Counted from the stretch's first letter, positions 11,822 to 27,779 are shown. The stretch: DNA of 32,880 bases from a virus (IMGVR_UViG_2548876695_000022:1-32880); one strand, 5' to 3'. Notes: generated by a model not told the origin, from the sequence alone. Numbers and translations: made by a program.

Positions 11822-11840
11822 AGGGTGCTGAATGCACCCT
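11822..11840. terminator. bidirectional hairpin between convergent S and U' genes
   Basis: AGGGTGC-tgaat-GCACCCT 7-bp stem; a T-rich tract follows on the - strand (TTTTCTGTGG). Confidence 0.45.
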
Positions 11841-11845
11841 CTGAA

Positions 11846-12367: not shown

Positions 12368-12446
12368 TATTTCACCTTGTTTTTGTTGAAAAGACAAAAT
12401 CATCATATATTTATTCAGATAATCTGTTTTTTGAACTACTGCACTT

Positions 12447-12809: not shown

Positions 12810-12817
12810 TCAGGGAT
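12792..12817. other. gix-like Gin recombination site (right boundary)
   Basis: ATCCCGTAAACC-GA-GGTTTCAGGGAT: near-perfect dyad around a central GA; core GTAAACCGAGGTTT matches the gix/hix consensus. Confidence 0.65.
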
Positions 12818-12871
12818 GCCGTATATCTGTTTTAAAAGGCATTTTCACCTCTTTTTAAGGAAGGTAAATAC

Positions 12872-13432: not shown

Positions 13433-13522
13433 GACGCTCCCTTTGTTGGGCCTTTACTGAATTAACGCAAAATGGCGTTTATCGGTCTGTGGATATGATA
13501 ATTCTGTTTATTCAGGAACAGG

Positions 13523-15580
13523 ATGAATATTATGACGTCCAAATGGGTTCAACTATCATCAATGCCCGGAAACTTTACCGTTAAAGTTTCCGGTGGTACA
13601 GCGGCATTTCTTGAGGCTCCCTTTCCTCCTGCTGAAACGAAAGGAGGAATGACATTTGCTGACTGTCTCATCAGTTTTAATACACAGGATTGCCTGTGGG
13701 TAAGGCCAGTATCCGGTGATCCGAACGTGGAAATTACCGGAGCGGGTATTGGTGCTGTCATTCCGTTAAGTGCTGATGTTGCCGGTACTGCTGAACCGTC
13801 AGACTGGGATAATGCAGAAACACATACCCGTCCGGCAGGAAATGAAACGGCTTCCAGCTCCCCTTCCTGGTATTACGTGATTGTTATAGCCGGCCAGTCC
13901 AATGCTTCATCTTATGGTGAAGGGTTGCCCCTTCCGGATTCTTATGATCGTCCTGATCCACGTATTATGCAGCTGGCACGCAGGAATACACAAACCCCCG
14001 GAGGTATTCCCTGCAAATACAATGAAATCATTCCAGCAGATCACTGCCTTCATGATGTTCAGAATATGAGTCTGCTGAACCATCCAAAAGCAGACCTGAA
14101 AAAAGGGCAGTATGGTTGTGTGGGGCAGGGACTTCATATTGCGAAAAAAGTATTACCGGTGATTCCTGCTGATGCCGGGATTTTACTGGTTCCCTGTGCC
14201 CGTGGCGGCTCTGCTTTTACAACCGGCGCAGTTGGCTCATTCGATCCGGCAAGTGGTGCAGCCGAGGCGTCACTACGCTGGGGAGTGGATACCCCACTGT
14301 ATCAGGATCTTGTCAGTCGAACTAAAGCGGCACTTGAGGCGAATCCAAAGAATGTGCTGTTATCTGTCGTATGGATTCAGGGGGAAGGAGACCTTAAAGC
14401 GACCCCGGCCCAGCATGGTGCCCAGTTTACTGCGATGGTGAAAAAATTCCGTGCGGATCTTGGTGCTTTCTCCGGTCAGTGTATTGGTGGTTCATCAGAC
14501 AGTGTGCCGTGGTTATGTGGTGACACAACCTATGACTGGAAAGAGAAGAACCCGGCGGCATATGAAACCATTTATAGCGGATATAAAAACCGGGCTTCCG
14601 AGAACATTCACTTTGTTCCACTGATGCACGATGAGTTCGGTAATAAAACCGCGACCAACCTGCCGGAGCACGACCCGGATATCGCTTCTGCCGGGTATTA
14701 TGGTGCGGAATCACGGGGAGATGGCAACTGGACAACAGCATCCAGGGCAACCCATTTTAGCTCCTGGGCGCGCCGTTTTCTGGTCTCAGATCGTTTTGCA
14801 TCAGCAATTCTTAAATATGCAGGTCTGACCTCTGCATTTATTGCCGGTGTGGCCCCTGATGGTGAAGCCCTGCCTCAGCCCGCGCCGGGTGGGAAACCGG
14901 AAGCGCCGACAGGTAGTCAGCCAGGAGGCAGTGAGTCCCCCCATCCGACATCCCCGTCACTCCGTACGCTGCTTTCACTTAAAGCATCAGCAGGAGAAGC
15001 CCCGGCTCAGGGCTGGAAAATTACAGATGGTACAATCCAGCTGACGGACGAAGGTAAAGCGTTGACCGTATCCAAACAAAGCGGAAAAACCTGGACGCTT
15101 ACCCATGGAACTGATGCAGCCGGTGAACTTCTGAAGCATGGTGGTCAGTTGACCTGTAAATTCCGTCTGTCAGGTGAAGTAAAAGAAGGCCAGTTTGCTC
15201 TGGGTATTTACCTCCACACCGATACGGTCCCGGAAGGTGTAACCATGAGTGGTACAGGCACACCGTTCCTGATGGCGTATTATCTCCAGACAACAGGCGG
15301 CCAGTTAAATCTGATGCACCATAAAACAGGGGGGAATACGAAACTGGGATCATTTGGAGCCTACAATAACCAGTGGCATACACTTGTCCTGAAGTTTACG
15401 GCGGGAAGTGCCCAGGTAACGCCTGTGCTGGATGGCACTCCGGGCCAGGCATTCCAGATGGTGAAAGATGCACTTTCCCCTGCCAAAGATACGCTGACAC
15501 TGACAGATGTCACCAAAGGGGCAACTTATGGCGTGTCTTTTGAGAGCGTTGTCCTTGAGGTTAATACCCCTGCGGCATAA
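13523..15580 (+). CDS. SASA/SGNH-family carbohydrate O-acetylesterase with C-terminal lectin-like domain (prophage cargo, NanS-p-like)
   Basis: 685 aa; motifs VIVIAGQSNASSYGEG and VVWIQGEGD typical of sialate O-acetylesterase (SASA) domains; Pro/Gly-rich linker then a beta-rich C-terminal domain; no signal peptide. Confidence 0.55.
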   Translation: MNIMTSKWVQLSSMPGNFTVKVSGGTAAFLEAPFPPAETKGGMTFADCLISFNTQDCLWVRPVSGDPNVEITGAGIGAVIPLSADVAGTAEPSDWDNAETHTRPAGNETASSSPSWYYVIVIAGQSNASSYGEGLPLPDSYDRPDPRIMQLARRNTQTPGGIPCKYNEIIPADHCLHDVQNMSLLNHPKADLKKGQYGCVGQGLHIAKKVLPVIPADAGILLVPCARGGSAFTTGAVGSFDPASGAAEASLRWGVDTPLYQDLVSRTKAALEANPKNVLLSVVWIQGEGDLKATPAQHGAQFTAMVKKFRADLGAFSGQCIGGSSDSVPWLCGDTTYDWKEKNPAAYETIYSGYKNRASENIHFVPLMHDEFGNKTATNLPEHDPDIASAGYYGAESRGDGNWTTASRATHFSSWARRFLVSDRFASAILKYAGLTSAFIAGVAPDGEALPQPAPGGKPEAPTGSQPGGSESPHPTSPSLRTLLSLKASAGEAPAQGWKITDGTIQLTDEGKALTVSKQSGKTWTLTHGTDAAGELLKHGGQLTCKFRLSGEVKEGQFALGIYLHTDTVPEGVTMSGTGTPFLMAYYLQTTGGQLNLMHHKTGGNTKLGSFGAYNNQWHTLVLKFTAGSAQVTPVLDGTPGQAFQMVKDALSPAKDTLTLTDVTKGATYGVSFESVVLEVNTPAA

Positions 15581-15637
15581 TCGTGACGGCCGGGAATTTA
15601 TCCGGCTGTAACATCAGTTAATAAGAGTGAGGCTTAT

Positions 15638-15817
15638 ATGACATATATAAACGTCTGCCTGCTGTATTTCTGCACGGTGGTTTGTTGTCTGTTGCTTGTC
15701 AGCGGTGGTTATAAAATTATTCGCAATTATTTTCGAAATAAAATTGATGCAGCTGCCGAGGAAAAGATAAAAAGCGGTGCTGTAATGCCGCAGCCGAAAG
15801 ACTCCGGTCAGATTTAA
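15638..15817 (+). CDS. 59-aa small membrane protein (hypothetical)
   Basis: ATG preceded by a GAGTGAGG RBS; MTYINVCLLYFCTVVCCLLLVSGGYKIIRNYFRNK... has one hydrophobic helix then a basic/charged tail; below the ORF-track size cutoff. Confidence 0.35.
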   Translation: MTYINVCLLYFCTVVCCLLLVSGGYKIIRNYFRNKIDAAAEEKIKSGAVMPQPKDSGQI

Positions 15818-15852
15818 TTTTTTGTGAACCAGAAAAGGAAAGGAGAATATTC

Positions 15853-16098
15853 ATGCCAGAGATTAAAGGCACGGTTACTGAAGAGCTTGTCAAACAGGCA
15901 CTTTATTCTGAAGAAGTGAACCGCGTGCTGAAGGCGCAGGTTCGCAAGGATTTTGAGGCACAAATCGACGCATATGTTGATGAAGTGCTGGCCCGAATGG
16001 TTGGTCGTTCTCCGGCTGAAAACAGCACGGAAAATGAGCCTCAACCCGTAGAGCAACCAGAGCCGGTTCAGCCCGGAACTGACGGTACTATGATGTAA
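15853..16098 (+). CDS. 81-aa acidic hypothetical protein
   Basis: Strong RBS AAAGGAAAGGAG before the ATG; helical N-terminal half and a Pro/Glu-rich C-terminus. Confidence 0.45.
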   Translation: MPEIKGTVTEELVKQALYSEEVNRVLKAQVRKDFEAQIDAYVDEVLARMVGRSPAENSTENEPQPVEQPEPVQPGTDGTMM

Positions 16099-16107
16099 CA
16101 ATACCGA

Positions 16108-16127
16108 CCGGCAGGTTTCCCTGCCGG
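16108..16127. terminator. bidirectional hairpin between the convergent 81-aa and zinc-ribbon genes
   Basis: Perfect 8-bp stem CCGGCAGG-tttc-CCTGCCGG with T-rich flanks on both strands. Confidence 0.5.
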
Positions 16128-16136
16128 GTGAATTTG

Positions 16137-16307
16137 TTAATGCACGTTTTGTGTATTTTCCCTCCGGGGAGAACAGGCAGGACATATCAGCATCCTGAAA
16201 CAGGAAGCATTTTTTGGTTTGTATGTCTTGCCATTTTGAGATCGAGAACGGCGATAGATGAGCTGTAAGGGAGTCTTACAGGCAGGGCAAACAGGCTCTT
16301 TATCCAT
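16137..16307 (-). CDS. 56-aa zinc-ribbon protein (CPAC...CPAC), function unknown
   Basis: Start at the internal ATG with an AAGGAG RBS 9 nt upstream; MDKEPVCPACKTPLQLIYRRSRSQNGKTYKPKNASCFRMLICPACSPRREN has two CxxC pairs; the ORF track lists 16137..16331. Confidence 0.45.
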   Translation of the reverse strand: MDKEPVCPACKTPLQLIYRRSRSQNGKTYKPKNASCFRMLICPACSPRRENTQNVH

Positions 16308-16415
16308 GATAAAGATCTCCTTTTTATGCATCTCTGCTTTACAGGAGACCGGGGAATATCATAGGATACGCCACGAGCTCGAAGTAAAGCATTGATGCAA
16401 GTTTTTACAGATTGA

Positions 16416-16454
16416 CCCAGCATAGTTCCAGCTATGCTGGGTTTCACTTTTATG
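16416..16454 (+). terminator. rho-independent terminator-like hairpin (+ strand)
   Basis: Perfect 10-bp stem CCCAGCATAG-ttccag-CTATGCTGGG followed by TTTCACTTTTATG; the exact window centre falls in this element. Confidence 0.45.
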
Positions 16455-16713
16455 TAGTATCCTGTTGATTTGAAACATACTACATATACGCGCGATCCTA
16501 CCTTCACTGTATAAAAAGTCAATAAAATGATCATTTTATGATCGTTTTCACCACCTAACTCTTCGTTTCTTTAAGTAAATAATCACCGCCCTGAATCATT
16601 GTTGATGACTTTTAAATCTATTTGTTGTATCAATTAAACAAATCGAATCGATCGTTTTTGTCGATCGATTGCATGAGAAAGGCATCAACAACAAAGCAGG
16701 AGGTTATGCGGCC
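16451..16713 (+). promoter_or_regulatory. com-mom upstream control region (palindromes, GATC cluster, RBS)
   Basis: 10-bp inverted repeat TATGTAGTAT/ATACTACATA (16451-16460 and 16477-16486) with 16-bp spacer; five GATC sites at 16494, 16529, 16540, 16650 and 16663; dyad AATCGATCG-tttttgt-CGATCGATT at 16646-16670; AGGAGG 11 nt before the com ATG. Confidence 0.5.
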
Positions 16714-16914
16714 ATGTATCGAAACATACGGTGCCGACACTGCAATAAGCTACTGGCACGGGCCAGTTTCAGTTATCTGGAAGTAAAATGTCCGCGCTGT
16801 AAAACCCTCAATCAAATCACATCTCCGAGCGCCACAGAGCACCCCACATACACAAGGAAATCCTGTCGTGGGGAACAGAAAGCAAGTCACATCCCGTATC
16901 ATCAGCACGCCTGA
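16714..16914 (+). CDS. com: Com zinc-finger translational activator of mom
   Basis: [35 protein letters not shown] matches the Mu Com zinc-finger pattern (IRCKNCNKLL...CPRCK); the 3' end overlaps the downstream gene as in Mu. Confidence 0.8.
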
Positions 16915-17605
16915 ACTTATTCGCTATAACGACAATATCGTTGGTTATGGCTCCCGTGAGTTGCGGGTTGAGACAATAAGTTGCTGGCTGGCCAGACTGG
17001 TTATCGTCAATAAACATTACAGCCACCGTTTCGTAAATAATTCCTACCTTCATCTGGGTATATTTTCAGAACGGGAACTTGTTGGCGTAATGCAATGGGG
17101 TTACGCCCTTAACCCAAACAGTGGTGCACGCGTCGTAACGGGTACGCAGAACCGAGAATATATGGAGCTTAACCGGCTATGGATGCATGACTGTATGCCG
17201 AGAAACTCCGAATCAAGGGCAATCAGTTACGCGCTCAAGCTAATCAGGCAGCTTTATCCGCAGGTACAGTGGGTTCAGTCGTTTGCAGATGAGCGTTGTG
17301 GCTGTCTTGGTGTCGTGTATCAGGCCAGCAATTTTGATTATGTAGGCAGCCATGAATCAACATTCTATGAACTTGATGGCGAGTGGTATCACGAGATTTG
17401 CAGGAGTGCCATTAAACGAGGCGGACAACGAGGTGAACATCTGAGGGCTAATATCGACAGAGCCAGTGTGCATAAGTTCCGACAGTTTCGTTACATCCGG
17501 TTTCTGAACAAGAGGGCCAGAAAACGCCTCAACACAAAGCTATTCAAAGTCCACCCTTACCCAAAACCACAAACAGTTAAAACTGGTTTGAAAGAGAGTG
17601 AATGA
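16868..17605 (+). CDS. mom: Mom DNA-modification (anti-restriction) protein
   Basis: 245-aa ORF with GTG start overlapping com, in the Mu position after gin; the com-mom pairing is diagnostic. Confidence 0.75.
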
Positions 17606-17644
17606 GCGCTTAAAAACTCATTCTAAAACTCAAAAGAAAAGCGC

Positions 17645-17725
17645 CGATTTAGTATCAAATAAGTTGCGTATCGGCGTTTTTCAGCGGTATCAAATGAAAT
17701 GCAAATCGGTATCAAAAAAATCGCC
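17645..17725. repeat. three direct repeats (G)GTATCAAA in the mom-distal intergenic region
   Basis: Copies start at 17652, 17686 and 17708, plus GTATCGG at 17668; candidate transposase end-binding sites of the Mu-like element or an operator for the downstream operon. Confidence 0.4.
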
Positions 17726-17747
17726 GCGCTATAAACAGCTAAAGCAG

Positions 17748-18404
17748 ATGCGGGAAACGCTGGCAAAAGCTGACCTTCCCCCGCGTAAGCGCCAGCGCCT
17801 TTTATGGCGTATTGCAAAGCTGGGCATTGTCGCAGCGGCAAAACGTCACCAGCGCCAGCAGGCGGCCCCGGACGGTACGCCGTGGGAGCCGCGCAAGCGT
17901 GGCAAAGGGAAGATGTTAAAAGGGCTGCCCAAGCTGTTGGCCGTGCGCGAAATGCCGGAGATTCAGGGGGTAAGAATTTACCTCAAGGGCGGGAACTACC
18001 GGAACGGGACGAAGCCCATCGCGGCGGGTCTGGTCGGCGCGGTCCAGCAGGACGGCGCACGGATCCAGATGAAAGCCAGTAACGCCCCGCGTAAGCCGCA
18101 GGCTGACAAGCCAGCGCTACCGCGACAGGCCAAGCGTCTGCGGGCGCTGGGTTACAAAACCCGCAAGGGCAAACGCTGGGTTAAGCCGTCCAGCAAGCAA
18201 ATCATGGAAACCATGAGCATGGCCCAGGCGGGATTACTGATTCGAAAACTGAAAGGCACACCCTCAAAACGCACATGGACCATTGATATTCCTGGGCGCG
18301 TTTTTCTGGGGGTGAGCAACGACGAATTTAACCAAATTATTGCGCGGCAAATGCAGGCAATCGGCTTCGGCTGGGACGTCAACGCGCAGCAAATCAGGGG
18401 GTAA
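17748..18404 (+). CDS. virion morphogenesis / tail completion protein (P2 gpS / Mu G-like)
   Basis: Pattern RKRQRLLWRIAK...QQAAPDGTPWEPRKRGKG...IPGRVFLGVSNDEF resembles the gpS-type tail completion family; start uncertain (ORF track begins with GTG at 17598; ATG at 17748 chosen, no strong RBS). Confidence 0.45.
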   Translation: MRETLAKADLPPRKRQRLLWRIAKLGIVAAAKRHQRQQAAPDGTPWEPRKRGKGKMLKGLPKLLAVREMPEIQGVRIYLKGGNYRNGTKPIAAGLVGAVQQDGARIQMKASNAPRKPQADKPALPRQAKRLRALGYKTRKGKRWVKPSSKQIMETMSMAQAGLLIRKLKGTPSKRTWTIDIPGRVFLGVSNDEFNQIIARQMQAIGFGWDVNAQQIRG

Positions 18405-18406
18405 AA

Positions 18407-19549
18407 ATGACCTGGCCGAATGTCAACGTCAGTCAGAAAAACCGCTTCAACGGCACAACGAACGACGTCGAGCGCGTCATCCTCTTTGTGGGTTACGGCG
18501 ACACTAACATCGGGAAAACCCAGTCGCTGAATACCGGCAGCGATCTGGATAAAGCCCTGGGCGACAAAGACAGCCCGTTAAAAAATATGGTGGCCGCAGC
18601 GGCCAATAACGCCGGTCAGAACTGGTTTGCTTACGTGCATGTGCTGGCAGAACCAGACAAGGAAGCCGAGGGCTATAAACCAGATGAAGACTGGATGAAC
18701 GCGGTCAAGATGGCCCAGAGCGTGGCATCCGTGGAAGGGGTTTTCCTGGTATTTGATACCGACGAAGTGGCAACCATCAACCGTGCAACGGAAATGCGTA
18801 TCACCTTGCAGGCTAATTATGGGCGATTTATCTGGTTTGGCCTTGCGATAGGCGGGCCGAAACAGGGCGAAGCATGGGCCGATTATGTGACGCGCCTGGC
18901 ACAACTCCAGGACGGTATTGCGTCACCGGGTGTGCAACTGGTCCCGCGTCTGTGGGGCAATGAACCCGGCGTCCTGGCCGGTCGCTTGTGTAACCGTTCG
19001 GTGACGGTGGCAGACAGCCCCGCCCGCGTTGCAACCGGCGCAGTCACCGCGCTGGGGCGTGACAAACTGCCGGTTGACGGGACGGGAGCCGAAATTGATC
19101 TGTCCGTGTTGCAGTCCCTGCAGGTGAACCGCTACAGCGTGCCGATGTGGTATCACGACTATGACGGCATCTACTGGGCTGACGGTCGCACCCTGGACGT
19201 TGAAGGCGGCGATTATCAGGTCATTGAAAACGTGCGCGTGGTTGATAAAGCATCCCGACGCGTCCGTCTGCGTGCTATCCCCAAAATTGCCGATCGTTCA
19301 CTGAACAGCACACCGGGCAGCATTGCCGCGCATGAAACCTATTTCGGCAAGCCGCTGCGTGAAATGGCGATTTCAACCCAGATCAATGGCGTCGAATTTC
19401 CGGGCGAAGTGAAGCCACCAAAGGACGGTGACATCACCATCACCTGGACCAGTAGCGAAGCGGTACAGATTTACCTTGTGGTTCGACCGTATGAGAGCGC
19501 GAAAGAAATCAGCGTCAGCATCGAACTGGACACCTCACTGGAGAGCTAA
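18407..19549 (+). CDS. putative tail sheath protein
   Basis: 380-aa ORF directly upstream of a tube-sized ORF in a tail module; assignment by size and position only. Confidence 0.45.
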   Translation: MTWPNVNVSQKNRFNGTTNDVERVILFVGYGDTNIGKTQSLNTGSDLDKALGDKDSPLKNMVAAAANNAGQNWFAYVHVLAEPDKEAEGYKPDEDWMNAVKMAQSVASVEGVFLVFDTDEVATINRATEMRITLQANYGRFIWFGLAIGGPKQGEAWADYVTRLAQLQDGIASPGVQLVPRLWGNEPGVLAGRLCNRSVTVADSPARVATGAVTALGRDKLPVDGTGAEIDLSVLQSLQVNRYSVPMWYHDYDGIYWADGRTLDVEGGDYQVIENVRVVDKASRRVRLRAIPKIADRSLNSTPGSIAAHETYFGKPLREMAISTQINGVEFPGEVKPPKDGDITITWTSSEAVQIYLVVRPYESAKEISVSIELDTSLES

Positions 19550-19552
19550 TCA

Positions 19553-20008
19553 ATGACTGAACGTATTAGCGGCGGATCGTTCGATGTGAACTACGACAGC
19601 ATCATGATTCACGTCGAAAACGCCACCGTCACCATTACGGATAACAGCGCCGTTGCGCAGTCGCGTGGCATCCCGAACGGCCACACGAAAGGGTCAGTTT
19701 CGGCGGATGTGGAAGTCGAAGTCGATTCCCAGAGCTTTAAAAAGTTTACCGCCGTTGCCCGTGCCGCAGGTTCCTGGCGAGCCATTCCGGCAAAGGACTT
19801 TTTGTTCTATGCCAATGCGGGGGATGACGAAGAAAAAATCGAGGTGTTTGGCTGTGTTCCGACGCTGTCCGACATCGTCAACATCAACCCCAACGAGGCC
19901 AGCAAAACCACGAAAAAAATTAAATTCATGGTGACAAGCCCGGACTTTGTCGCGATTGACGGCGTGCCGTACCTGTCAGCCCGTGACACTCGAGATCTGA
20001 AAGGCTGA
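19553..20008 (+). CDS. putative tail tube protein
   Basis: 151-aa ORF following the sheath-sized gene; assignment by size and position only. Confidence 0.45.
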   Translation: MTERISGGSFDVNYDSIMIHVENATVTITDNSAVAQSRGIPNGHTKGSVSADVEVEVDSQSFKKFTAVARAAGSWRAIPAKDFLFYANAGDDEEKIEVFGCVPTLSDIVNINPNEASKTTKKIKFMVTSPDFVAIDGVPYLSARDTRDLKG

Positions 20009-20012
20009 CACG

Positions 20013-20324
20013 ATGATGAACGGAGAAACGTCACTGCTTGAAAAGCTGTTGCTTATCGGGGCCGTGATCGGCCTGGGGCAACTGATGGTCAGCAATGAGC
20101 GAATCACAACCCGTCTGCTGGTCGGGCGGATGATTCTGGGATCTGCAGTCGCACCGCTGGCCGCAATCCCGCTGCTGAAATTCCCCGATATGCCGGAACT
20201 GGTCGTCATTGGGCTGGCCTGCGCCCTGGGCATTCTGGGAAGTGCGTTTATTGAGGCGGGGCTAAAGCGCTGCCTGGACATGTATATCAAGCGATGGGGG
20301 AGCAAGCGCAATGAAACTGAGTGA
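20013..20324 (+). CDS. holin (three predicted transmembrane segments)
   Basis: 103 aa with hydrophobic stretches LLLIGAVIGLGQLMV, LLVGRMILGSAVAPLAAIPLL and LVVIGLACALGILGSAFI and a charged C-terminus; immediately upstream of the endolysin. Confidence 0.6.
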   Translation: MMNGETSLLEKLLLIGAVIGLGQLMVSNERITTRLLVGRMILGSAVAPLAAIPLLKFPDMPELVVIGLACALGILGSAFIEAGLKRCLDMYIKRWGSKRNETE

Positions 20325-20649
20325 AAAACAGCAACTTTTTACGGTGATGATCGCCAGCCTGATTCATTTTGCCCAGGAAAAAGGCTATCGCCTGACGTTT
20401 GGCGAAGCGTACCGCACGCCGGAACAGGCCGCGCTTAACGCAAAAAAAGGGAGCGGCATTACTAACAGCCTGCATACCCAGCGCCTTGCGGTGGATTTTA
20501 ACCTGTTTATTAACGGCGAATACCAGACCGACAGCGCCGCATATCGCCCCCTGGGCGAATACTGGGAATCTATCGGCGGATCGTGGGGTGGACGTTTCAG
20601 TAAGCCGGACGGGAACCATTTCAGTCTTGAGCATAACGGGGTTCGCTGA
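20311..20649 (+). CDS. endolysin, peptidase M15-type zinc peptidase
   Basis: 112 aa with H...D...H zinc-site spacing (HTQRLAVDF ... DGNHFSLEH) characteristic of M15 cell-wall peptidases; overlaps the holin 3' end. Confidence 0.7.
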   Translation: MKLSEKQQLFTVMIASLIHFAQEKGYRLTFGEAYRTPEQAALNAKKGSGITNSLHTQRLAVDFNLFINGEYQTDSAAYRPLGEYWESIGGSWGGRFSKPDGNHFSLEHNGVR

Positions 20650-21032
20650 TGCGCAATTTGCTGGGTCTTTTGCTGATTCTGGCAGCTGCAATGTCAGCGG
20701 GCTGGCAGGCGCATGACTGGCACGACGCAAAGCTGAAACTCGCTGCCAGTGAAGCGGCAGAACAAACGCGCCAGATTGTTGTTGAGGTGACACAGCAGTC
20801 TGGTGAAGCGCTGGAAGCAAAACTCGCGGAGCTGAGGGCCAATGAAATTCATACGGAACGGGTTATCCGCACGGAAACCATTAAATCGGTTTTTAGCAAT
20901 GTTTGTGCTTCTGATGATTACGTCCGGTTGTTCAACGAAAGTGCAGATCAAGCCGAACGAAAATTATCAGGAAAACCAGCTGGCACTTTGCCCGGTCACG
21001 TTGCCACGTCTGGCCGGACCGACCGGAAGTGA
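20649..21032 (+). CDS. i-spanin (Rz-like)
   Basis: N-terminal transmembrane segment MRNLLGLLLILAAAMSAGW followed by a charged coiled-coil-like region; ATG overlaps the endolysin stop (TGATG). Confidence 0.6.
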   Translation: MRNLLGLLLILAAAMSAGWQAHDWHDAKLKLAASEAAEQTRQIVVEVTQQSGEALEAKLAELRANEIHTERVIRTETIKSVFSNVCASDDYVRLFNESADQAERKLSGKPAGTLPGHVATSGRTDRK

Positions 21033-21138
21033 CTTTGACGCGGCGCTGAAAGCCTACCGGCTGATGTATACCGACTGCGCCGCCCGACATAACGCCCTGG
21101 TGGGCATCATTCGACAACGTAAGGAATTAGCACAATGA
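20842..21138 (+). CDS. o-spanin (Rz1-like lipoprotein), overlapping i-spanin in the +1 frame
   Basis: Signal peptide plus lipobox-like LLMITSG-C; starts inside the i-spanin gene and extends beyond it; alternative start at 20899. Confidence 0.55.
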   Translation: MKFIRNGLSARKPLNRFLAMFVLLMITSGCSTKVQIKPNENYQENQLALCPVTLPRLAGPTGSDFDAALKAYRLMYTDCAARHNALVGIIRQRKELAQ

Positions 21139-21404
21139 GCAAATCGAAAAAAATCGCCATGACCGTGGCGGGCGTAAATCTGAGCTTTGAGCCGAATAAA
21201 ACCGCGTTCAACAACCTGCTTAACGAAATGACCATGACCAATAAAGTTGCCCCAATGGTGACGTATCTGGGCCGCATTGTTGATGCCGAGTGTAAAGAGG
21301 CGCTCAACAAGCTGATGGAAGATTATCCGGGCTGCGAAATGCAGATCGTCGAGAAGGTTAACGAAATTTACTCCCCAAAACTTGAGATCGAAGTAAAAAA
21401 CTGA
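21135..21404 (+). CDS. tail assembly chaperone (P2 gpE / lambda G-like)
   Basis: 89-aa ORF just upstream of the tape measure; ends on a slippery A_AAA_AAC heptamer with a -1 frame open to the tape-measure start. Confidence 0.6.
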   Translation: MSKSKKIAMTVAGVNLSFEPNKTAFNNLLNEMTMTNKVAPMVTYLGRIVDAECKEALNKLMEDYPGCEMQIVEKVNEIYSPKLEIEVKN

Positions 21405-21592
21405 CGGCGCGGGTAGCGGCCATTCGCACGAATGCCCTGGAGCAATACCTTGCCTTGCGCCGCTATTACCTCCCGCACGAAGACGACGACGAAGAAAGCA
21501 TCGCCCGCGCCCTGTGGCTGGATGAATATTTCGCCCAGACCCGCGCCAGTAAGACGGCGGAAGGGATAGCAATCGCATTTAACGGAAACTGA
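21395..21592 (+). other. programmed -1 ribosomal frameshift site and extension of the tail chaperone
   Basis: Heptamer A AAA AAC at 21395-21401, seven nt before the zero-frame stop; the -1 frame reads KKLTARVAAIRTNALEQYLALRRYYLPHEDDDEESIARALWLDEYFAQTRASKTAEGIAIAFNGN to a TGA at 21590-21592, 1 nt before the tape-measure ATG (21594). Confidence 0.5.
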
Positions 21593-21593
21593 T

Positions 21594-23708
21594 ATGAGCC
21601 ACCTGGATTTTACCCTGAGCCTGATCGATAAGCTGACGCGGCCATTAAAGACGGCCCAGTCTTCGCTGTCTGGCTTTGCTGAAAAATCGCAGGAGTCTTT
21701 TACAAAAATCGGGATTGGTGCGGCGGCTGTCTGGGGCGTGGCGCAGTCCATCGCGGGCGTGGTGGGTCCGGCGTATGAGATGAACGCCGCGCTTGCAGAA
21801 GTGGGTTCCAAAGGCGTAGCAGAGGACGCGCTGAAGCGTATGTCCGGCGAAGCCATGCGATTCAGTATGCGCTACGGCAAAGGGGCCGTTGATGTGGTCC
21901 GGTCAAGCTACGCGATGAAAGGCGCAATGGCGGGCCTGTCCGATCTGGACCTGCCCCGCGTTACCATCGCGGCCAATACCCTGGCCGCAGGCGTCAAGGC
22001 CAGCGGCGAAGAGGCAGGCGAATACATCGGCGCGATGGCGTCACGTTTCAACGCGGAATTGTCCAGTCTGGGGCATGTGCGTTTTGCCGAAGAGCTGGCA
22101 GGAAAAACGGCGTACATGGTGCAAAACTTCGGCGTGAAAATGCAGACCATGCAGGAGCTTATCGAGGGGACGAAAAGCGCCGGTGCTGACTTTGGCGTCA
22201 GCCTGGATGAACAGTTCGCCGTACTGGGTACGCTTTCGCGCACGCTGGGTACTGAGGCCAGCGGGATCTACGAGCAGTTTTTACGCAGCGCCCCGGCTGC
22301 CGCTGAAAAGCTGGGTATGAGCTTTGTCGATGCCACCGGAAAAATGCTGCCGATGGGCGACATTCTGCAAAAACTCCAGAACAAATACGGGCAGAGCATT
22401 GAAGGGAACGTCAAGGCACAACAGGCGCTGGATGCCGCGTTCGGTGGTGGTGCTGACGTTATCAAAAAGCTGTACGGCCAGCAGGATAAATTAAACCGCA
22501 GCATCACCGAGCTGGGCCGAAATGACGGGATGAAACGCGCCCAGGAAATGGCCGAACGAATGGCTGAGCCGTGGGAACGTATCAAAGCGACATTCTTTGC
22601 CATTCGCGTGGCGATTGGTAACACGCTGTTCCCTATCCTGTCGCCGCTGATGAACCGTATTGCCGACGTGGGGACAAAATTTGCCCGCTGGCTGGATATG
22701 TTCCCGAATATTGCCCGCTGGCTGGGTTACATCACCCTGGGCGTGCTGTCCTTCGGGTTGGCTGGGGCGGCGGTCAATATCGTGATGGGGGTCTTTGGCT
22801 TCACCATGACAGGGCTGGCCGCAATTGCAAAAGTGCTGGGCGGGGCATGGAAACTCCTGTTATGGACGCTCAACCTGTTGCGTCCGTCCCTGCTGACGAC
22901 GCGCATCGGTCTGGCTGCATTGTGGATCCAGTCAAAATTACTGGCGCTGTGGACGGGCGTCTGCCGCATCGCGCTTGCTGCATGGAATATCGCGTTAAAG
23001 GCCGGAGCCATTGCCATGCGGGTTTACGGTGCGGCGACCATGTTTGCCGGGGCGGCAATGCAACTCCTGATGAGTCCGATCACTCTGATCGTTGCCGGGC
23101 TGGCACTTCTGGCCGTGGGGGTCTGGTATGTCATCACCCACTGGGAAGAACTGGCGGCAGCAATCATGGATACGTCGGCTTTTGCCTGGGTGATGTCGGT
23201 CGCTGAACAGGTAGGCCAGGTGTTTGCGCAGGTCTGGCAGTCCATCACAGACGGCTGGGCCGTGGTGGTTGATTTCTTTGCCGGTCTTTCCCCGCTTGCC
23301 ACCTTTGAAGGGTTCGCACAAACCATCGGCGGGGTATTCAGCAAACTTTTTGACGTCCTCAAAAATACCTTTGCGTCTACCTATAACTGGATTGTCGAGA
23401 AGTTAAACAAGATCCCCGGCGTAAACATCGACCTGAAAACCGTTTCGCCACCGGCAGCGGCTGCCGTTCCGGCAAATGCGGTCATTCCTGACAGTGCTGC
23501 AGGTTCATCGAAGCTAAACAGCCCGTCCGTGCTGACGGGGAACCGAATTAATGCAGGCATCCCACGCGGCGGCCTGATGAGTCAGGTTAAAAACGACAGC
23601 AAAACCGCTGTTGATAACCGTAAAACGTGGGGCGATACCTACATCAACGCCCCCAATGGAATCACCCCGGCCCAGCTGGCTGAATGGCAGGAGCTTAACG
23701 CAGGATGA
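21594..23708 (+). CDS. tail tape measure protein
   Basis: 704 aa with a helical N-terminal region, central hydrophobic segments and position after the frameshifting chaperone. Confidence 0.8.
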   Translation: MSHLDFTLSLIDKLTRPLKTAQSSLSGFAEKSQESFTKIGIGAAAVWGVAQSIAGVVGPAYEMNAALAEVGSKGVAEDALKRMSGEAMRFSMRYGKGAVDVVRSSYAMKGAMAGLSDLDLPRVTIAANTLAAGVKASGEEAGEYIGAMASRFNAELSSLGHVRFAEELAGKTAYMVQNFGVKMQTMQELIEGTKSAGADFGVSLDEQFAVLGTLSRTLGTEASGIYEQFLRSAPAAAEKLGMSFVDATGKMLPMGDILQKLQNKYGQSIEGNVKAQQALDAAFGGGADVIKKLYGQQDKLNRSITELGRNDGMKRAQEMAERMAEPWERIKATFFAIRVAIGNTLFPILSPLMNRIADVGTKFARWLDMFPNIARWLGYITLGVLSFGLAGAAVNIVMGVFGFTMTGLAAIAKVLGGAWKLLLWTLNLLRPSLLTTRIGLAALWIQSKLLALWTGVCRIALAAWNIALKAGAIAMRVYGAATMFAGAAMQLLMSPITLIVAGLALLAVGVWYVITHWEELAAAIMDTSAFAWVMSVAEQVGQVFAQVWQSITDGWAVVVDFFAGLSPLATFEGFAQTIGGVFSKLFDVLKNTFASTYNWIVEKLNKIPGVNIDLKTVSPPAAAAVPANAVIPDSAAGSSKLNSPSVLTGNRINAGIPRGGLMSQVKNDSKTAVDNRKTWGDTYINAPNGITPAQLAEWQELNAG

Positions 23709-24040
23709 GTACCGAACCGTTATACATCGACCTTTTGATCACTGACGGCGATTTCACGCTGGACAGCGGCAACGAGCCGCGCCGTTGCGATAACCGCGAC
23801 AGCATCACCCAGGACATTATTCACAGCATTCTGGAAAGCGGTATCACCACCCGCCTGATCGGTGAACGCAGCCCGACAATGCGCGGTGACGTGCTGACGC
23901 AACTGTCCTTACTGGTGGAAAGCGACGAACGTCTGGTCCCAGGAACCATAGTGATCACCGAAGAAACCCTTTCGAGGTTGTATATCACGGCGGAAACCTA
24001 CGATTTCGGCCCTGTCAGTACAGAGGTTAACTATGACTGA
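23705..24040 (+). CDS. baseplate wedge protein (P2 gpW / T4 gp25-like)
   Basis: 111 aa, start overlaps the tape-measure stop; size and position before the J-like gene. Confidence 0.55.
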   Translation: MSTEPLYIDLLITDGDFTLDSGNEPRRCDNRDSITQDIIHSILESGITTRLIGERSPTMRGDVLTQLSLLVESDERLVPGTIVITEETLSRLYITAETYDFGPVSTEVNYD

Positions 24041-25217
24041 GAAACCCGACGTTGATTTCGAAAAGGTACTGAATGACAGCGGGATGCCCGCGACAGAGGC
24101 CGAAATTACGGCGGCATTTAAAGCCACCGTGCAGGCGGAAGGGTTCGTCACAAACACGTCGAGAATGTCACCTTTCTGGCGGCTGATTTCGAAGATTGTC
24201 ACCACGCCGGTGTTATGGCTGCGTGCGGCGCTGATCGATGTGGTTCTGCGCAATATGTTTGTTGCGACTGCCACCGGTCCCATGCTGCGCCTGCTGGCCT
24301 GGGCGGTTCATATCGAGCCTAAACCGGCCAGTGCTGCCGCTGGCGTGCTGCGATTCTTCAAGCTGAATGCGGCGGATGTGGTCGTCGTGCCTGCCGGAAC
24401 ACTGGTGCAAACAGAGCGCATTAACGGCGTGGTTTACGTGCTGGCCGTGAATGAAGACGTGACACTGCCTGCCGGGGTTGAAAGCGGGCTGGTTCCCGTC
24501 ACGGCGACCGGCACCGGCAGCGGCTATAACCTTGCGCCAGGCTATTACCGGATCTTACCTGTTGCAGTAGCTGGAATCGCCAGCGCGGTCAATGAGGACG
24601 AATGGCTGATTACGCCAGGGGCTAACGAGGAAAGCGACGACGAGCTGCGCGACCGCACCCGCAACCAGTTTAATCTGGTGGGGAATTACCACTCTGACGC
24701 TATCTACCGCAGCATGATTGCCAGCGTGCTGGGCCTGAGCATTGATCGCATCTACTTTTTGCACGATGCCCCGCGTGGGCCGGGTACGGCAAATGCTTAT
24801 CTGTTACTGGACAGCGGCGAAATATCACAGCCCTTTATTGATGCGGTTAACGATTATGTGAATACCCAGGGCCACCACGGACACGGTGATGATCTGCAGT
24901 GTTATGCCATGCCGGAAACCAGTCACACCCTGGCGGTTACTGTCTATGTCAAAAGCGTGGAAAACATGGAAGCGGAAGACCTGAGCGCGTTAAAAACCGG
25001 TATTACCGACCTGATTCGTTGCGCGTTTCGCGAGAACGCCAATTACGACGTTAAAAAGACGCAGCCCTATTCGCGCTATTCCTTTTCGAATCTGGGCCGC
25101 GAGATCCACAAGGCTTTTCCGGTTGTCGATTCACTGCATTTTTCACTAACGGATATTGTCAGCGAACTGTCGGTCCCGCGCCTGTCAGGGTTAACGGTGG
25201 AGATTGAAAATGACTGA
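24033..25217 (+). CDS. baseplate J-like protein
   Basis: 394 aa between the W-like and I-like genes, as in the P2 V-W-J-I-H-G operon. Confidence 0.6.
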   Translation: MTEKPDVDFEKVLNDSGMPATEAEITAAFKATVQAEGFVTNTSRMSPFWRLISKIVTTPVLWLRAALIDVVLRNMFVATATGPMLRLLAWAVHIEPKPASAAAGVLRFFKLNAADVVVVPAGTLVQTERINGVVYVLAVNEDVTLPAGVESGLVPVTATGTGSGYNLAPGYYRILPVAVAGIASAVNEDEWLITPGANEESDDELRDRTRNQFNLVGNYHSDAIYRSMIASVLGLSIDRIYFLHDAPRGPGTANAYLLLDSGEISQPFIDAVNDYVNTQGHHGHGDDLQCYAMPETSHTLAVTVYVKSVENMEAEDLSALKTGITDLIRCAFRENANYDVKKTQPYSRYSFSNLGREIHKAFPVVDSLHFSLTDIVSELSVPRLSGLTVEIEND

Positions 25218-25803
25218 GTTTTCGAAGTTGCTTTCCGGTCTGAAATTGCCGTCGTGGCTGAACAAAGGCGACCCCGCCAGGCTGTTGCGTGGCAGCGTGA
25301 AGTTCTGGTCGCAGGTGTACGGGTGGATCACCTGGCCGTTAAAGCAGTTTGACCCGCTGGTTTGCCCTGAGCCGCTGTTGAACCTGATTGCCTGGGAGCG
25401 CGACATCGATCGGTTTAAGGGGGAGCCGCTCGACATCTTCCGCAAGCGGGTGAGTTACGCATTTATCAATGCGCAGCAGGCCGGAGAGGTGGCGGGCTTT
25501 ATTGCCATTTTTGAGCGACTGGGGATTGGTTACGTTGAATTACTGGAACGGCAGGACGGACTCGACTGGGACGTGATTGTCGTTCGAGTGACAAGCAGCC
25601 AGGTTGCGGAAAATGGCGATCTCCTGCTGGAAATCATTCGCAAATATGGGCGCACATGCCGCCGTTACCAGTTTGAAGTAATCGACACCCTGCCACTGAA
25701 TATCAATATTGGCTGGTATCAGGGGGAATATATTTGCTGGCCTGCCACCCTGGGCGATGTGAATAACCAGTCAGAAGCAACATATAGCGCAAGTTTGAAG
25801 TAG
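25210..25803 (+). CDS. tail protein I-like (P2 gpI)
   Basis: Motif [16 protein letters not shown] resembles P2 gpI CPANLLPWLAWAFSVD; ATG at 25210 with GGTGGAG RBS (ORF track begins at TTG 25204). Confidence 0.6.
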
Positions 25804-25814
25804 AGGGAATATTA

Positions 25815-27779
25815 ATGTCACAGGCCGTCATTACAAAAGCATTTGCAGAGTGGAAAGCCCAGCAGGCAATTAATAACCAGCCCGTCACGCTGGATGAGTT
25901 TATTTTTGCTTATATTCCGGGGCTGGATGCTGACAAGCCGATTAATAATACTGAAACAACGCCAGCGGAAGATAAAATAGTTTGTCGTCAGGCGGTGAAT
26001 AAAGCCGGTGTTGTGAATGAAAACTCTGTCGTTTATTCCGTTACCCTGGGGGCGGATGTGGGCGATTTTGATTTCAACTGGATCGGGCTGGCAAATAAGG
26101 CAACGGGTACACTGGCGATGATTATTCACGCCCCGACCCAACGAAAAATTAAAAACGCAGACGGTCAGCAGGGAAACGTTCTTGTTCGTTCCATGCTGAT
26201 GGAATACAGCGGAGCCAGGGAAGCGACCGAAATTAACACTCCGGCAGAGACATGGCAGATTGATTTTACTGCCCGACTGGTGGGAATGGATGAACGCCAG
26301 CGCCGGGAAAATATCGATCTGTATGGCGCAGCGGCATTTTTTGATTCGGGCTATCTGGTCGCAAAGTCCGGCAATCAGTTTTTTGTCACAAAGGGGGCGG
26401 GATATGTCGCCGGATTGCGTGCCGAATTGCCCGCAAACTTCAATATCACAGTATCCGCGAAACCGACAAAAATCTGGCTTGATGTGAGCTGGACCGGGAC
26501 GTTAACAAGCGAATGGGCTGTACAGAGCAAAATTACTGTTGCTGCAGATCTTGCCGATTATGTGCTGGGCGGTGTGCAGCATTATGTCTTTGCGGTGGCG
26601 AGTATTGATGCTGCCGGAAATATCACTGACCTGCGCCCGAAAGGCACGCTAAATGACCAGGCGGCCAGCGATGCGCTGAAAAAGCATGAACAATCCCGAA
26701 ATCACCCTGATGCATCAACCAGTGAAAAGGGTTTTGTGCGGTTAAGCAGTGAAACGAACAGTGATTCCGAAGCGATGGCCGTCACGCCAAAAGCATTAAA
26801 AGCGGTGAATGAGAATGCAAATGGCCGCGTTCCGGCATCACGAAAAGTGAACGGCCATGCCCTGAATGGAGATATCAATGTCACTTCACGGGATATTTTT
26901 GACGGCCAGGTTATAGCGATTGGTGCAAATAAGAATCTGGATGATTACCAGGTACCGGGGCTTTATTTTCAGGAAGCGAACAACAATACCAGTGCAGCAA
27001 TGAATTACCCGGAGAATAGCGCGGGTTCTCTGATGGTACTGAGAGGTGCCGGAGTCACTCAGGTTTATCGTGTGTACAACAGCTCGCGCAGTTATTCGCG
27101 CAGCAAGTATTCAACGCTGGCATGGACGCCGTGGATGCCAGAAGATTCTTACCCTGTCGGCGCACCTATCCCCTGGCCATCGGATGTTACCCCGACAGGG
27201 TACGCCTTAATGCAGGGGCAGCCCTTTGATAAAGCGGTCTATCCATTGCTAGCGATTGCCTATCCTGCGGGGATTATCCCGGACATGCGAGGCCAGACGA
27301 TTAAGGGTAAACCGAACGGTCGCGCGGTACTCTCGTATGAACAGGATGGTGTTATATCGCATACCCACGGAGCCAGTATTTCCGATACCGATTTGGGGAC
27401 GAAATACACCAGCTCTTTTGATTATGGTTCAAAACCAACAACCAGTTTTGACTACGGCAATAAATCCTCCACTGAGGGTGGGTGGCACGCACATAACTTT
27501 CGTTATTGCGCAACGTCTGCATACCGGGATACCCCCGGTCAGGGGCTGGGGATGCATTCGTCTAATGTTTCATGGGCGGCGGGAGATCGCATTGAGGGAA
27601 GCGGTAATCATGCTCATGTGACATGGATCGGCCCTCATGATCACTGGGTGGGTATTGGTGCGCATAACCATTATGTGGTTATGGGCTATCACGGACATAC
27701 AGCGACCGTTCATGCCGCAGGAAATGCGGAAAATACCGTTAAAAATATTGCGTTTAACTACATTGTGAGGCTTGCCTGA
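25815..27779 (+). CDS. tail fibre protein (P2 gpH-like)
   Basis: 654 aa; [52 protein letters not shown] matches the conserved P2 H motif (EHEQSRRHPDAS...KGFTQLSSATNSTSETLAATPKAVK); His-rich C-terminal region. Confidence 0.8.

What the first reader, a model, noticed from the sequence alone, without database searches (positions are those of the whole stretch)
20013..21138. Complete lysis cassette embedded between tube and chaperone genes
Holin (three transmembrane segments), M15-type zinc peptidase endolysin, and an i-spanin with an o-spanin lipoprotein gene partly nested in its +1 frame form a compact cassette with overlapping start and stop codons. Its position inside a tail operon is unusual for P2-like phages and typical of particle-release modules in tailocin clusters.
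Basis: partly seen in the sequence, partly recalled or inferred. Interest (0 to 1): 0.5.

Follow-up and report, generated by a model that had tools for sequence, protein, structure and literature searches.

The report
Ordinary HP1-type prophage lysis cassette
The four genes are a real and intact phage lysis cassette (holin, zinc peptidase endolysin, two-part spanin), but its place between the tail tube and tail chaperone genes is the normal layout of HP1-like P2-family phages and does not mark a tailocin.

Summary
Observation confirmed. The four + strand ORFs are exactly as described, with start/stop overlaps of 14, 1 and 4 nt:
- 20013-20324: holin. Pfam Phage_holin_3_2 E=9e-21, 38% identical to P2 gpY, three hydrophobic segments.
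- 20311-20649: M15/LAS peptidase. S53-H55-x6-D62 and D100-x2-H103 are invariant in 74 homologs and align with the zinc and catalytic residues of ChiX and Ply500.
- 20649-21032: i-spanin. PHROG 1152, E=2.5e-37.
- 20842-21138: o-spanin in the +1 frame, with a conserved lipobox Cys30.

Window 17734-32880 is 100% identical to complete E. coli prophages that carry P2-type head genes, an integrase and a replication gene. It is 95% identical to the plaque-isolated Salmonella phages SI7, SW3 and SW5 (Peduoviridae, Irrigatiovirus). The order tube, holin, endolysin, spanin, chaperone, tape measure is shared by HP1, K139, F108, phi3, SMHB1, YenM324 and ESSI-2. Pseudomonas tailocins instead place the holin and the lysin/spanins on opposite sides of the tail genes.

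The head-less look of the window has a different cause. A Mu-like prophage (window 1-17733) sits 14 nt upstream of the tail-completion gene. This junction recurs in at least 24 public assemblies.

The cassette is already known and of low interest. The o-spanin is simply unannotated in RefSeq.

The parts
20013..20324 (+). Holin, 103 aa, P2 gpY-type, three predicted TM segments (about residues 8-27, 34-55 and 60-84) and a charged C-terminus (KRCLDMYIKRWGSKRNETE)
   Evidence: Pfam PF04550 E=9.2e-21 and PHROG 175 holin E=2.6e-34. BLASTP to P2 gpY gives 38% identity, E=1e-17. Hydropathy peaks 1.87/1.71/2.23. 100% identical to SI7 gp11.
20311..20649 (+). Endolysin, 112 aa, single-domain M15/LAS zinc peptidase, probably an L-alanyl-D-glutamate endopeptidase. 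Has no signal peptide or SAR domain. Proposed Zn ligands are H55, D62 and H103; proposed catalytic acid is D100.
   Evidence: Pfam Peptidase_M15_4 E=5.7e-10. S53, H55, D62, W85, D100 and H103 are invariant in 74 homologs of 42-63% identity. The profile matches PDB 8q2g (9e-9), 2vo9 Ply500 (2e-5), 6akv and 5opz ChiX (2e-3), with SxHx6D and DxxH aligned. ChiX ligands His68/Asp75/His123 and catalytic Asp120 are taken from PMC5778951.
20649..21032 (+). i-spanin, 127 aa, with an N-terminal membrane anchor (LLGLLLILAAAMSAGW) and a charged, probably helical periplasmic domain containing one Cys (C86)
   Evidence: PHROG 1152 Rz-like spanin E=2.5e-37. Hydrophobic N-terminus. Annotated as Rz-like spanin in SI7 gp13, 92% identical.
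20842..21138 (+). o-spanin, 98 aa precursor in the +1 frame. The first 191 nt lie inside the i-spanin gene. Lipobox I-T-S-G-C30 with Ser at +2. Two further conserved Cys (C50, C79). GAGGG lies upstream of the ATG.
   Evidence: phrog_2425 E=1.9e-30 and phrog_456 Rz-like spanin E=6e-6. tblastn matches in 354 phage records, some annotated o-spanin. The lipobox Cys and both internal Cys are conserved in 6 of the 7 phages aligned across 6 genera; Felixounavirus Z31 keeps the lipobox Cys and the C79 equivalent but lacks the C50 equivalent. Not annotated in RefSeq E. coli or in SI7.
19553..20008 (+). Tail tube gene (HP1 orf24 family), the upstream anchor of the cassette slot
   Evidence: Pfam PF10772 E=6e-51. 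75 phage records carry it, all HP1-like Peduoviridae of 22-38 kb apart from one 6.3-kb partial record.
21135..21404 (+). Tail assembly chaperone, the downstream anchor. A -1 frame extension is open from 21386 to 21592 behind the slippery A_AAA_AAC at 21395.
   Evidence: Pfam Phage_TAC_10 E=1e-30. Frame analysis. DUF6890 is called separately in public annotations.
17733..17734 (.). Junction between the right end of a Mu-like prophage (window 1-17733, ending in com/mom) and the SI7-like prophage (17734-32880). It lies 14 nt upstream of the ATG (17748) of the tail-completion gene.
   Evidence: blastn: window 1-17733 is 99.7% identical to the Mu-like prophage of E. coli 6817, and 17734-32880 is 100% identical to the prophage of E. 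coli 2011C-4251. Mom Pfam E=8e-77. The junction-specific 236-aa ORF was found on 24 contigs read, in 111 index blocks, and L023 is 100% identical across it.

Best explanation
This is the standard late-expressed lysis cassette of an HP1-like member of the P2 family (Peduoviridae, close to Irrigatiovirus SI7) lying as a prophage in E. coli.

Inferred mechanism, from the well-studied holin-endolysin-spanin pathway:
1. The cassette is co-transcribed with the tail genes from an Ogr/Delta-dependent late promoter further upstream.
2. The three-TM, P2 gpY-type holin accumulates in the inner membrane and triggers, forming large holes.
3. The cytoplasmic 112-aa zinc peptidase passes through the holes and cuts the peptidoglycan stem peptide, most probably at the L-Ala-D-Glu bond.
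4. The inner-membrane i-spanin and the outer-membrane lipoprotein o-spanin, joined through their periplasmic C-termini, then fuse or disrupt the outer membrane and release complete virions.

Shown here: gene identities, catalytic and lipobox motifs, intactness, synteny, and membership of a complete phage genome. Inferred only: timing, bond specificity, the spanin interaction, and expression.

In this particular lineage a Mu-like prophage has inserted just upstream of the tail-completion gene. The tail-plus-lysis block is therefore cut off from its normal upstream context.
For: Family assignments for all four proteins. Holin homologous to the essential P2 holin gpY (annotation). Zinc triad and catalytic Asp invariant and aligned to solved L-Ala-D-Glu endopeptidases (PMC5778951). 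Lipobox conserved in o-spanin homologs. No frameshifts or stops relative to SI7, with protein identities of 86-100%. No sigma-70-like promoter and no convincing + strand terminator between 17700 and 24000, and start/stop overlaps suggest translational coupling. The same gene order occurs in eight genera of HP1-like phages. Identical prophages carry Ogr/Delta, portal, terminase, scaffold, capsid, integrase and replication genes. SI7, SW3 and SW5 were isolated as Salmonella phages. A review statement notes that lysis genes of P2-like phages usually sit in a module among the tail genes (PMC10612066).
Against: No experimental lysis data exist for this cassette or for SI7. A single-sequence search found no solved relative of the endolysin. 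The AlphaFold model was only moderate (pLDDT 73, low around the metal site), and its Foldseek matches to ChiX, EndoT5 and VanY were not significant. TM segments were judged by hydropathy only, not by TMHMM. The i-spanin has no Pfam hit. In this lineage the Mu-like insertion may prevent normal late transcription of the cassette. The left half of the prophage could not be retrieved.
Confidence: 0.9

Rival explanations
1. One reading: the cassette is the particle-release module of a tailocin, a domesticated head-less phage tail cluster, and its position inside the tail operon is a signature of that.
For: The window shows two tail gene clusters and no capsid genes. In this lineage the SI7-like tail-plus-lysis block is physically separated from whatever lies to the left of the Mu-like prophage. 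Tailocin clusters do carry holin, lysin and spanin genes (PMC4684702).
Against: The same 15,147 bp is 100% identical to prophages with a full P2-type head module, integrase and replication gene. All 8 contexts shown for the intact tail-completion protein have the head module upstream. SI7, SW3 and SW5 are isolated phages. The position is the HP1-group norm. The first tail cluster belongs to a separate Mu-like prophage whose head genes lie just outside the window. Pseudomonad tailocins place the holin and the lysin on opposite sides of the tail genes.
Confidence: 0.03
2. The cassette is intact in sequence but functionally silent or mis-regulated in this lineage. The Mu-like prophage separates it from the late promoter, so it is a decaying remnant rather than a working lysis module.
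For: The Mu-like right end lies 14 nt upstream of the tail-completion ATG. No promoter-like site was found in 17700-24000. A combined element of about 30 kb plus a Mu-like genome would exceed a P2-type capsid (inference). The junction is fixed in many assemblies.
Against: There are zero substitutions over 15,147 bp relative to intact prophages, so no decay has occurred yet. Read-through from the co-oriented com-mom operon is possible because no + strand terminator-like site follows mom. P2-type late promoters would not be detected by a sigma-70 consensus scan.
Confidence: 0.3
3. It is a holin/endopeptidase/spanin set recruited for non-lytic protein secretion, like Serratia marcescens ChiWXYZ.
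For: The endolysin profile matches ChiX (E=2e-3) with identical motif spacing. ChiWXYZ has the same four-part architecture (PMC4259817 and PMC5778951).
Against: The genes sit inside a phage tail operon, with translational overlaps to the tube and chaperone genes. ChiX is described as a bona fide bacterial gene that is not in a prophage. No cargo genes are adjacent.
Confidence: 0.01

Closest known systems
Salmonella phage SI7 gp11-gp13 (NC_049460; also SW3 and SW5), Peduoviridae, Irrigatiovirus
   Same: Same genes in the same order. DNA is 95% identical over 18400-21600. Protein identities: holin 100%, endolysin 98%, i-spanin 92%, o-spanin 86%.
   Different: SI7 is a free phage genome, whereas the window is an E. 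coli prophage copy interrupted upstream by a Mu-like prophage. The o-spanin ORF is not annotated in SI7.
Haemophilus phage HP1 hol-lys-orf25, between orf24 (tube) and orf26/orf27
   Same: Identical slot and order: sheath, tube, holin, endolysin, spanin, chaperone, tape measure.
   Different: The contents are non-homologous. HP1 uses a Phage_holin_2_3 holin and a 186-aa Phage_lysozyme, and its orf25 shows no similarity to this i-spanin.
Phage P2 lysis genes Y, K, lysA, lysB, lysC
   Same: The holin is homologous to gpY (38%, E=1e-17). The spanin genes have the same overlapped (not embedded) architecture as lysB/lysC. The cassette is embedded among morphogenesis genes of a late operon.
   Different: In P2 the cassette lies between X and R/S, upstream of the tail-completion genes. 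The P2 endolysin K is not an M15 peptidase. No lysA-like gene is present here. The spanins are only marginally similar (E about 0.01).
Serratia marcescens ChiWXYZ; ChiX L-Ala-D-Glu endopeptidase (PDB 5OPZ)
   Same: Small single-domain LAS/M15 peptidase with H-x6-D and D-x2-H spacing, paired with a holin and spanin-like genes.
   Different: ChiWXYZ is chromosomal and used for chitinase secretion, not phage release. Sequence similarity is detectable only at profile level.
R-type tailocin (pyocin) lysis genes of Pseudomonas
   Same: Holin, peptidoglycan hydrolase and Rz/Rz1-type spanins accompany contractile-tail genes.
   Different: There the holin lies proximal and the lysin/spanins distal to the tail genes. 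They use TC 1.E.20 holins, GH19 lysins and dedicated regulators, and have no head genes. None of this applies here.

Membership tests
Canonical holin-endolysin-spanin lysis cassette of phages of Gram-negative hosts | Small holin with TM segment(s) and a charged C-terminal tail | tested here: met
   PF04550 at 74.5 bits against a cutoff of 25. Three hydropathy peaks above 1.6 and a KR-rich C-terminus. Homology to P2 gpY.
Canonical holin-endolysin-spanin lysis cassette of phages of Gram-negative hosts | Adjacent peptidoglycan hydrolase without a secretion signal | tested here: met
   Peptidase_M15_4 at 40.1 bits against a cutoff of 25. No hydrophobic N-terminal segment was flagged.
Canonical holin-endolysin-spanin lysis cassette of phages of Gram-negative hosts | i-spanin: N-terminal membrane anchor plus periplasmic domain | tested here: met
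   PHROG 1152 Rz-like spanin E=2.5e-37. Hydrophobic residues 3-19. Coiled-coil content was not formally predicted.
Canonical holin-endolysin-spanin lysis cassette of phages of Gram-negative hosts | o-spanin: lipoprotein signal with a lipobox Cys and a non-Asp residue at +2 | tested here: met
   Sequence MKFIRNGLSARKPLNRFLAMFVLLMITSGC30-S-T. The Cys is invariant in 7 homologs. It fits the PROSITE PS51257 pattern as I recall it from memory. LipoP/SignalP were not available.
Canonical holin-endolysin-spanin lysis cassette of phages of Gram-negative hosts | Causes host lysis when expressed | not testable with these tools
   Needs inducible expression.
Peptidase family M15 / LAS zinc peptidases | Zn ligands His-x6-Asp plus a distal His | tested here: met
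   H55, D62 and H103 are invariant in 74 homologs. They align to ChiX His68/Asp75/His123 and to the equivalent Ply500 residues.
Peptidase family M15 / LAS zinc peptidases | Catalytic acid three residues before the distal His | tested here: met
   D100 is invariant and aligns with ChiX Asp120, which is essential for activity.
Peptidase family M15 / LAS zinc peptidases | LAS fold | tested here: inconclusive
   AlphaFold model has pLDDT 73. The top Foldseek hits were ChiX, EndoT5 and VanY, but with E of 0.09 or higher.
HP1-like lineage of Peduoviridae | HP1-type sheath (DUF2586) and tube (HP1_Orf24), with the lysis cassette between the tube and the tail chaperone | tested here: met
   Taxonomy of the 95% relative SI7 is Peduoviridae, Irrigatiovirus.
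R-type tailocin cluster | The element lacks capsid, portal, terminase, replication and integration genes | tested here: not met
   100%-identical copies carry all of these. For the window's own lineage, the region left of the Mu-like prophage could not be fetched.
R-type tailocin cluster | Lysis genes arranged as in described tailocins (holin proximal, lysin/spanins distal to the tail genes) | tested here: not met
   All four genes are contiguous between tube and chaperone. The comparison is from PMC4684702.
R-type tailocin cluster | Production of bactericidal head-less particles | not testable with these tools
   Requires induction, electron microscopy and killing assays.

The most novel reading that the evidence does not exclude
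In the lineage that carries this window, a Mu-like prophage has cut an SI7-like prophage in two, immediately upstream of its tail-completion gene. This leaves an intact, head-less block of tail-completion, sheath, tube, lysis cassette, chaperone, tape measure, baseplate and fibre genes directly downstream of, and co-oriented with, the Mu com-mom late operon.

The most novel reading not excluded is that this block is now expressed under Mu late control, or independently. It would then yield HP1-type tails plus lysis. That would be either an early, observable step of tailocin birth by phage-into-phage transposition, or cross-phage hijacking of a lysis module.
Probability: 0.05. Interest if true: 0.45.

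Novelty: already known. Interest (0 to 1): 0.1.

Why it matters
It matters little for biology. The cassette and its location are textbook for HP1-like P2-family phages, and holin, endolysin and Rz-like spanin are already annotated in RefSeq for SI7.

The practical value is in annotation:
- The o-spanin gene is missing from the RefSeq E. coli and SI7 annotations. It was called from an internal start, downstream of the lipobox, in the YenM324 record and in one of the eight contexts listed for the intact prophage (L019).
- A window that shows tails and lysis genes but no heads should not be read as a tailocin without checking for nested prophages.

The endolysin is a very small (112 aa) predicted L-Ala-D-Glu endopeptidase active on Gram-negative peptidoglycan. 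It could be of minor interest as an enzybiotic scaffold.

Tried and rejected
- A single-sequence phmmer search of the endolysin against PDB gave only noise. A 74-sequence profile was needed.
- NCBIfam had no model for any of the four proteins.
- The AlphaFold model built from a shallow alignment of 81-96% identity to the query was mediocre. Foldseek placed M15 enzymes on top but without significance, so it was not used as evidence.
- The HP1 genome paper (PMC145952) is not held, so the GenBank annotation was used instead.
- The Mu/SI7-like junction was searched for in 5,426 complete E. coli genomes and in GTDB species representatives. It was absent from both. It was finally found through the junction-specific 236-aa ORF.
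- The 268-aa GTG-start version of that ORF is not on record.
- An attempt to reach the left junction through the GpR-like protein failed.
- Antisense ORFs 19976-20311 and 20287-20820 were considered and dismissed as by-products of the coding strand.
- The MM dual-start at the holin N-terminus was considered as an antiholin motif. It was not adopted because there is no intervening basic residue.

Full report
**1. Observation**

The four ORFs are present exactly as described.
- Holin: 20013-20324, 103 aa.
- Endolysin: 20311-20649, 112 aa.
- i-spanin: 20649-21032, 127 aa.
- o-spanin: 20842-21138, 98 aa.

The holin begins 4 nt after the tube stop. Holin and endolysin overlap by 14 nt. The endolysin stop and the i-spanin start share one base (TGATG). 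The o-spanin is in the +1 frame relative to the i-spanin, overlaps its last 191 nt and runs 106 nt beyond it. Its stop overlaps the chaperone start as ATGA.

Profile searches identify every one of them.
- Holin: Pfam Phage_holin_3_2, E=9.2e-21, and PHROG 175 holin, 2.6e-34.
- Endolysin: Peptidase_M15_4, 5.7e-10, plus endolysin PHROGs.
- i-spanin: PHROG 1152 Rz-like spanin, 2.5e-37.
- o-spanin: phrog_2425, 1.9e-30, and phrog_456 Rz-like spanin, 6e-6.

The flanks are a DUF2586 sheath (18407-19549), an HP1_Orf24 tube (19553-20008), a Phage_TAC_10 chaperone (21135-21404) and a tape measure protein (21594-23708).

**2.

*Holin.* Three hydrophobic segments exceed the classical Kyte-Doolittle 19-residue threshold, with peaks of 1.87, 1.71 and 2.23 at about residues 8-27, 34-55 and 60-84. 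A lysine/arginine-rich C-terminus follows. The protein is 38% identical (E=1e-17) to gpY, the essential holin of P2.

*Endolysin.* A single-sequence PDB search failed. I therefore collected representatives from a library clustered at 50% identity, which gave 1,588 hits, and aligned 74 full-length homologs of 42-63% identity. The only invariant columns are S53, H55, D62, W85, D100 and H103.

The profile matches solved L-alanyl-D-glutamate endopeptidases: 8q2g (9e-9), Ply500 2vo9 (2e-5), LysB4 6akv (5e-4) and ChiX 5opz (2e-3). The S-x-H-x6-D and D-x-x-H motifs are in register in these alignments. In ChiX these positions are the zinc ligands His68, Asp75 and His123 and the catalytic Asp120 (PMC5778951). 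The triad is therefore present.

An AlphaFold model was only moderate (pLDDT 73). Its Foldseek matches to ChiX, EndoT5 and VanY were not significant, so I do not rely on them.

**3. Spanins**

The o-spanin frame has tblastn matches in 354 phage records, several of them annotated as o-spanin.

An alignment with SI7, YenM324, ESSI-2, a Felixounavirus, a Sashavirus and a Kuravirus shows an invariant lipobox cysteine in the context L-x-x-[TMLI]-S-[GA]-C-[ST]-T. Two further cysteines are conserved in all of these except the Felixounavirus, which lacks the first of them.

In the window the precursor reads MKFIRNGLSARKPLNRFLAMFVLLMITSG-C30-ST. It has basic residues near the N-terminus, Ser at +2 (consistent with outer-membrane sorting, from established Lol-pathway knowledge), and GAGGG upstream of the ATG.

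The architecture is the overlapped type, as in P2 lysB/lysC, rather than the embedded lambda Rz/Rz1 type.

**4. What the element is**

Window 17734-32880 is 100% identical over 15,147 bp, with no mismatch, to a prophage between yegR and yegQ in E. coli 2011C-4251. That prophage carries an integrase, cox, a replication endonuclease, ogr/delta, portal, terminase, scaffold, a P2-family capsid and a small terminase. Eighteen of the 5,426 complete E. coli genomes hold the 18400-21600 stretch at 99% identity or more over at least 80% of its length.

The tail-completion protein occurs in thousands of index blocks. All eight contexts shown for it have the P2-type head module directly upstream.

The region is 95% identical to Salmonella phages SI7, SW3 and SW5 (Peduoviridae, Irrigatiovirus; 30 kb genomes). 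RefSeq already labels holin, endolysin and Rz-like spanin there. These phages were isolated from irrigation and aquaculture water in a collection of 45 Salmonella phages (PMC6783827).

**5. Is the position unusual?**

The position is unusual only relative to P2 itself, where Y-K-lysA-lysB-lysC lie between X and the tail-completion genes R/S.

In the HP1-like branch the order sheath, tube, (holin), endolysin, spanin, chaperone, tape measure is the rule. I found it in each of these:
- HP1: orf23, orf24, hol, lys, orf25, orf26, orf27.
- YenM324.
- ESSI-2.
- K139.
- Pseudomonas phi3.
- Pasteurella F108.
- Salinivibrio SMHB1.

A recent analysis of HP1-group phages states that lysis genes of P2-like phages usually sit in a module inserted among the tail genes (PMC10612066).

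The slot is conserved but its contents are mosaic:
- HP1 and K139 use a Phage_holin_2_3 holin with a Phage_lysozyme.
- F108 and phi3 also have a Phage_lysozyme endolysin.
- SMHB1 has a Peptidase_M15_3.
- The enteric members (window, SI7, YenM324) use the P2-type holin with Peptidase_M15_4. ESSI-2 has the same endolysin type, but no holin is annotated in its record and none was scanned.

Exchange is also visible at close range. The endolysin is 80% identical to that of YenM324, whereas the flanking tube (48%) and holin (37%) are far more diverged.

**6. Tailocin reading**

This reading is not supported. Beyond the complete relatives above, described pseudomonad tailocins place the holin proximal and the lysin plus spanins distal to the tail genes, and they use other protein families (PMC4684702).

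The reason the window looks head-less and has two tail clusters is a second phage. Window 1-17733 is the right part of a Mu-like prophage:
- sheath, tube, tape measure, DNA-circularisation protein and Mu gp45/46/47/48-type baseplate genes;
- an invertible-segment-like tail-fibre region with a Gin-type recombinase;
- com and mom at the right end (Mom Pfam E=8e-77).

It is 99.7% identical to a prophage inserted elsewhere, in an SDR-family oxidoreductase gene, in E. coli 6817. There its head genes lie immediately to the left.

The Mu-like end abuts SI7-like sequence at 17733/17734, 14 nt upstream of the RefSeq start (17748) of the tail-completion gene. No complete E. coli genome and no GTDB representative has this junction. 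A junction-specific 236-aa ORF (17694-18404) is nevertheless on record in 111 index blocks. Contigs from GCA_012556485.1 and GCA_003760215.2 are 100% identical to the window across the junction, and one from GCA_012541335.1 differs at a single base. The junction is therefore a real, clonally spread arrangement and not a mis-assembly.

**7. Mechanism**

*Shown.* The cassette is intact relative to SI7 and tightly packed, with overlaps that suggest translational coupling. No sigma-70-like promoter and no convincing + strand terminator lies between 17700 and 24000. It therefore belongs to the same transcription unit as the tail genes.

*Inferred from the established lysis pathway.* Late transcription is activated by the Ogr/Delta-type factor encoded in intact copies. 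The gpY-type holin accumulates and triggers. The signal-less zinc peptidase reaches the murein and cleaves the stem peptide, probably at L-Ala-D-Glu. The spanin complex then removes the outer-membrane barrier.

*Uncertain in this lineage.* It is unknown whether the block is still transcribed. The Mu-like insertion removes its upstream context but places it downstream of the co-oriented com-mom operon, with no obvious terminator in between.

**8. Verdict**

The annotation-level interpretation is correct. The evolutionary and functional inference (tailocin-like, unusual) is wrong.

The cassette is already known. The only additions are the unannotated o-spanin and the nested-prophage context. Interest is low.

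Noticed in passing
window 1-17733, junction at 17733/17734: The first half of the window is the right part of a Mu-like prophage ending in com/mom. It is inserted 14 nt upstream of the tail-completion gene of the SI7-like prophage, a phage-in-phage arrangement. The junction is absent from 5,426 complete E. coli genomes but present in at least 24 draft or complete assemblies (for example GCA_012556485.1). The left junction and the target duplication could not be retrieved.
   Followed up: partly
window 20842-21138; L001 9849-10145; L004 3585-3773: The o-spanin gene is not annotated in RefSeq E. coli prophage copies or in phage SI7. In Yersinia phage vB_YenM_324 it is annotated from an internal Met downstream of the lipobox, so the lipoprotein signal is cut off. 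One assembly (L019) calls it from an internal start as well.
   Followed up: partly
window 21386-21592, slippery site 21395-21401: A canonical -1 slippery heptamer, A_AAA_AAC, sits just before the chaperone stop. The -1 frame is open from 21386 to 21592 (called separately as DUF6890). This looks like the gpE/E'-type programmed frameshift of tail chaperones, but public records annotate it as two unrelated small genes.
   Followed up: partly
window 20311-20649 versus L004 2943-3284: The endolysin is 80% identical to that of Yersinia phage YenM324, while the neighbouring tube (48%), holin (37%), i-spanin (44%) and chaperone (52%) are far more diverged. This indicates recent exchange of the endolysin gene alone within the conserved slot.
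   Followed up: partly
window 10900-13432: Mu G-segment-like region: a tail-fibre gene (10900-11811, +), an oppositely oriented tail-fibre assembly gene (11846-12478, -) and a Gin-type serine recombinase (12872-13432; Resolvase E=1e-51). This is probably an invertible host-range switch. The inverted repeats were not searched for.
   Followed up: no
window 13523-15580: A 685-aa protein with a sialate O-acetylesterase-like SASA domain and DUF6645 lies between the invertase and com/mom of the Mu-like prophage. It is a possible cargo or receptor-modifying gene.
   Followed up: no
window 31915-32880 (- strand): An AbiH-family abortive-infection gene (Pfam E=2e-60) lies at the right end of the SI7-like prophage, next to yegQ in intact copies. 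It is a defence moron absent from phage SI7.
   Followed up: no
window 26819-27720: This is the only stretch of the SI7-like part with no blastn match to SI7. It falls in the tail-fibre gene (25815-27779). Other E. coli copies carry fibres of 654-746 aa with different C-terminal domains, so it appears to be a host-range cassette.
   Followed up: no
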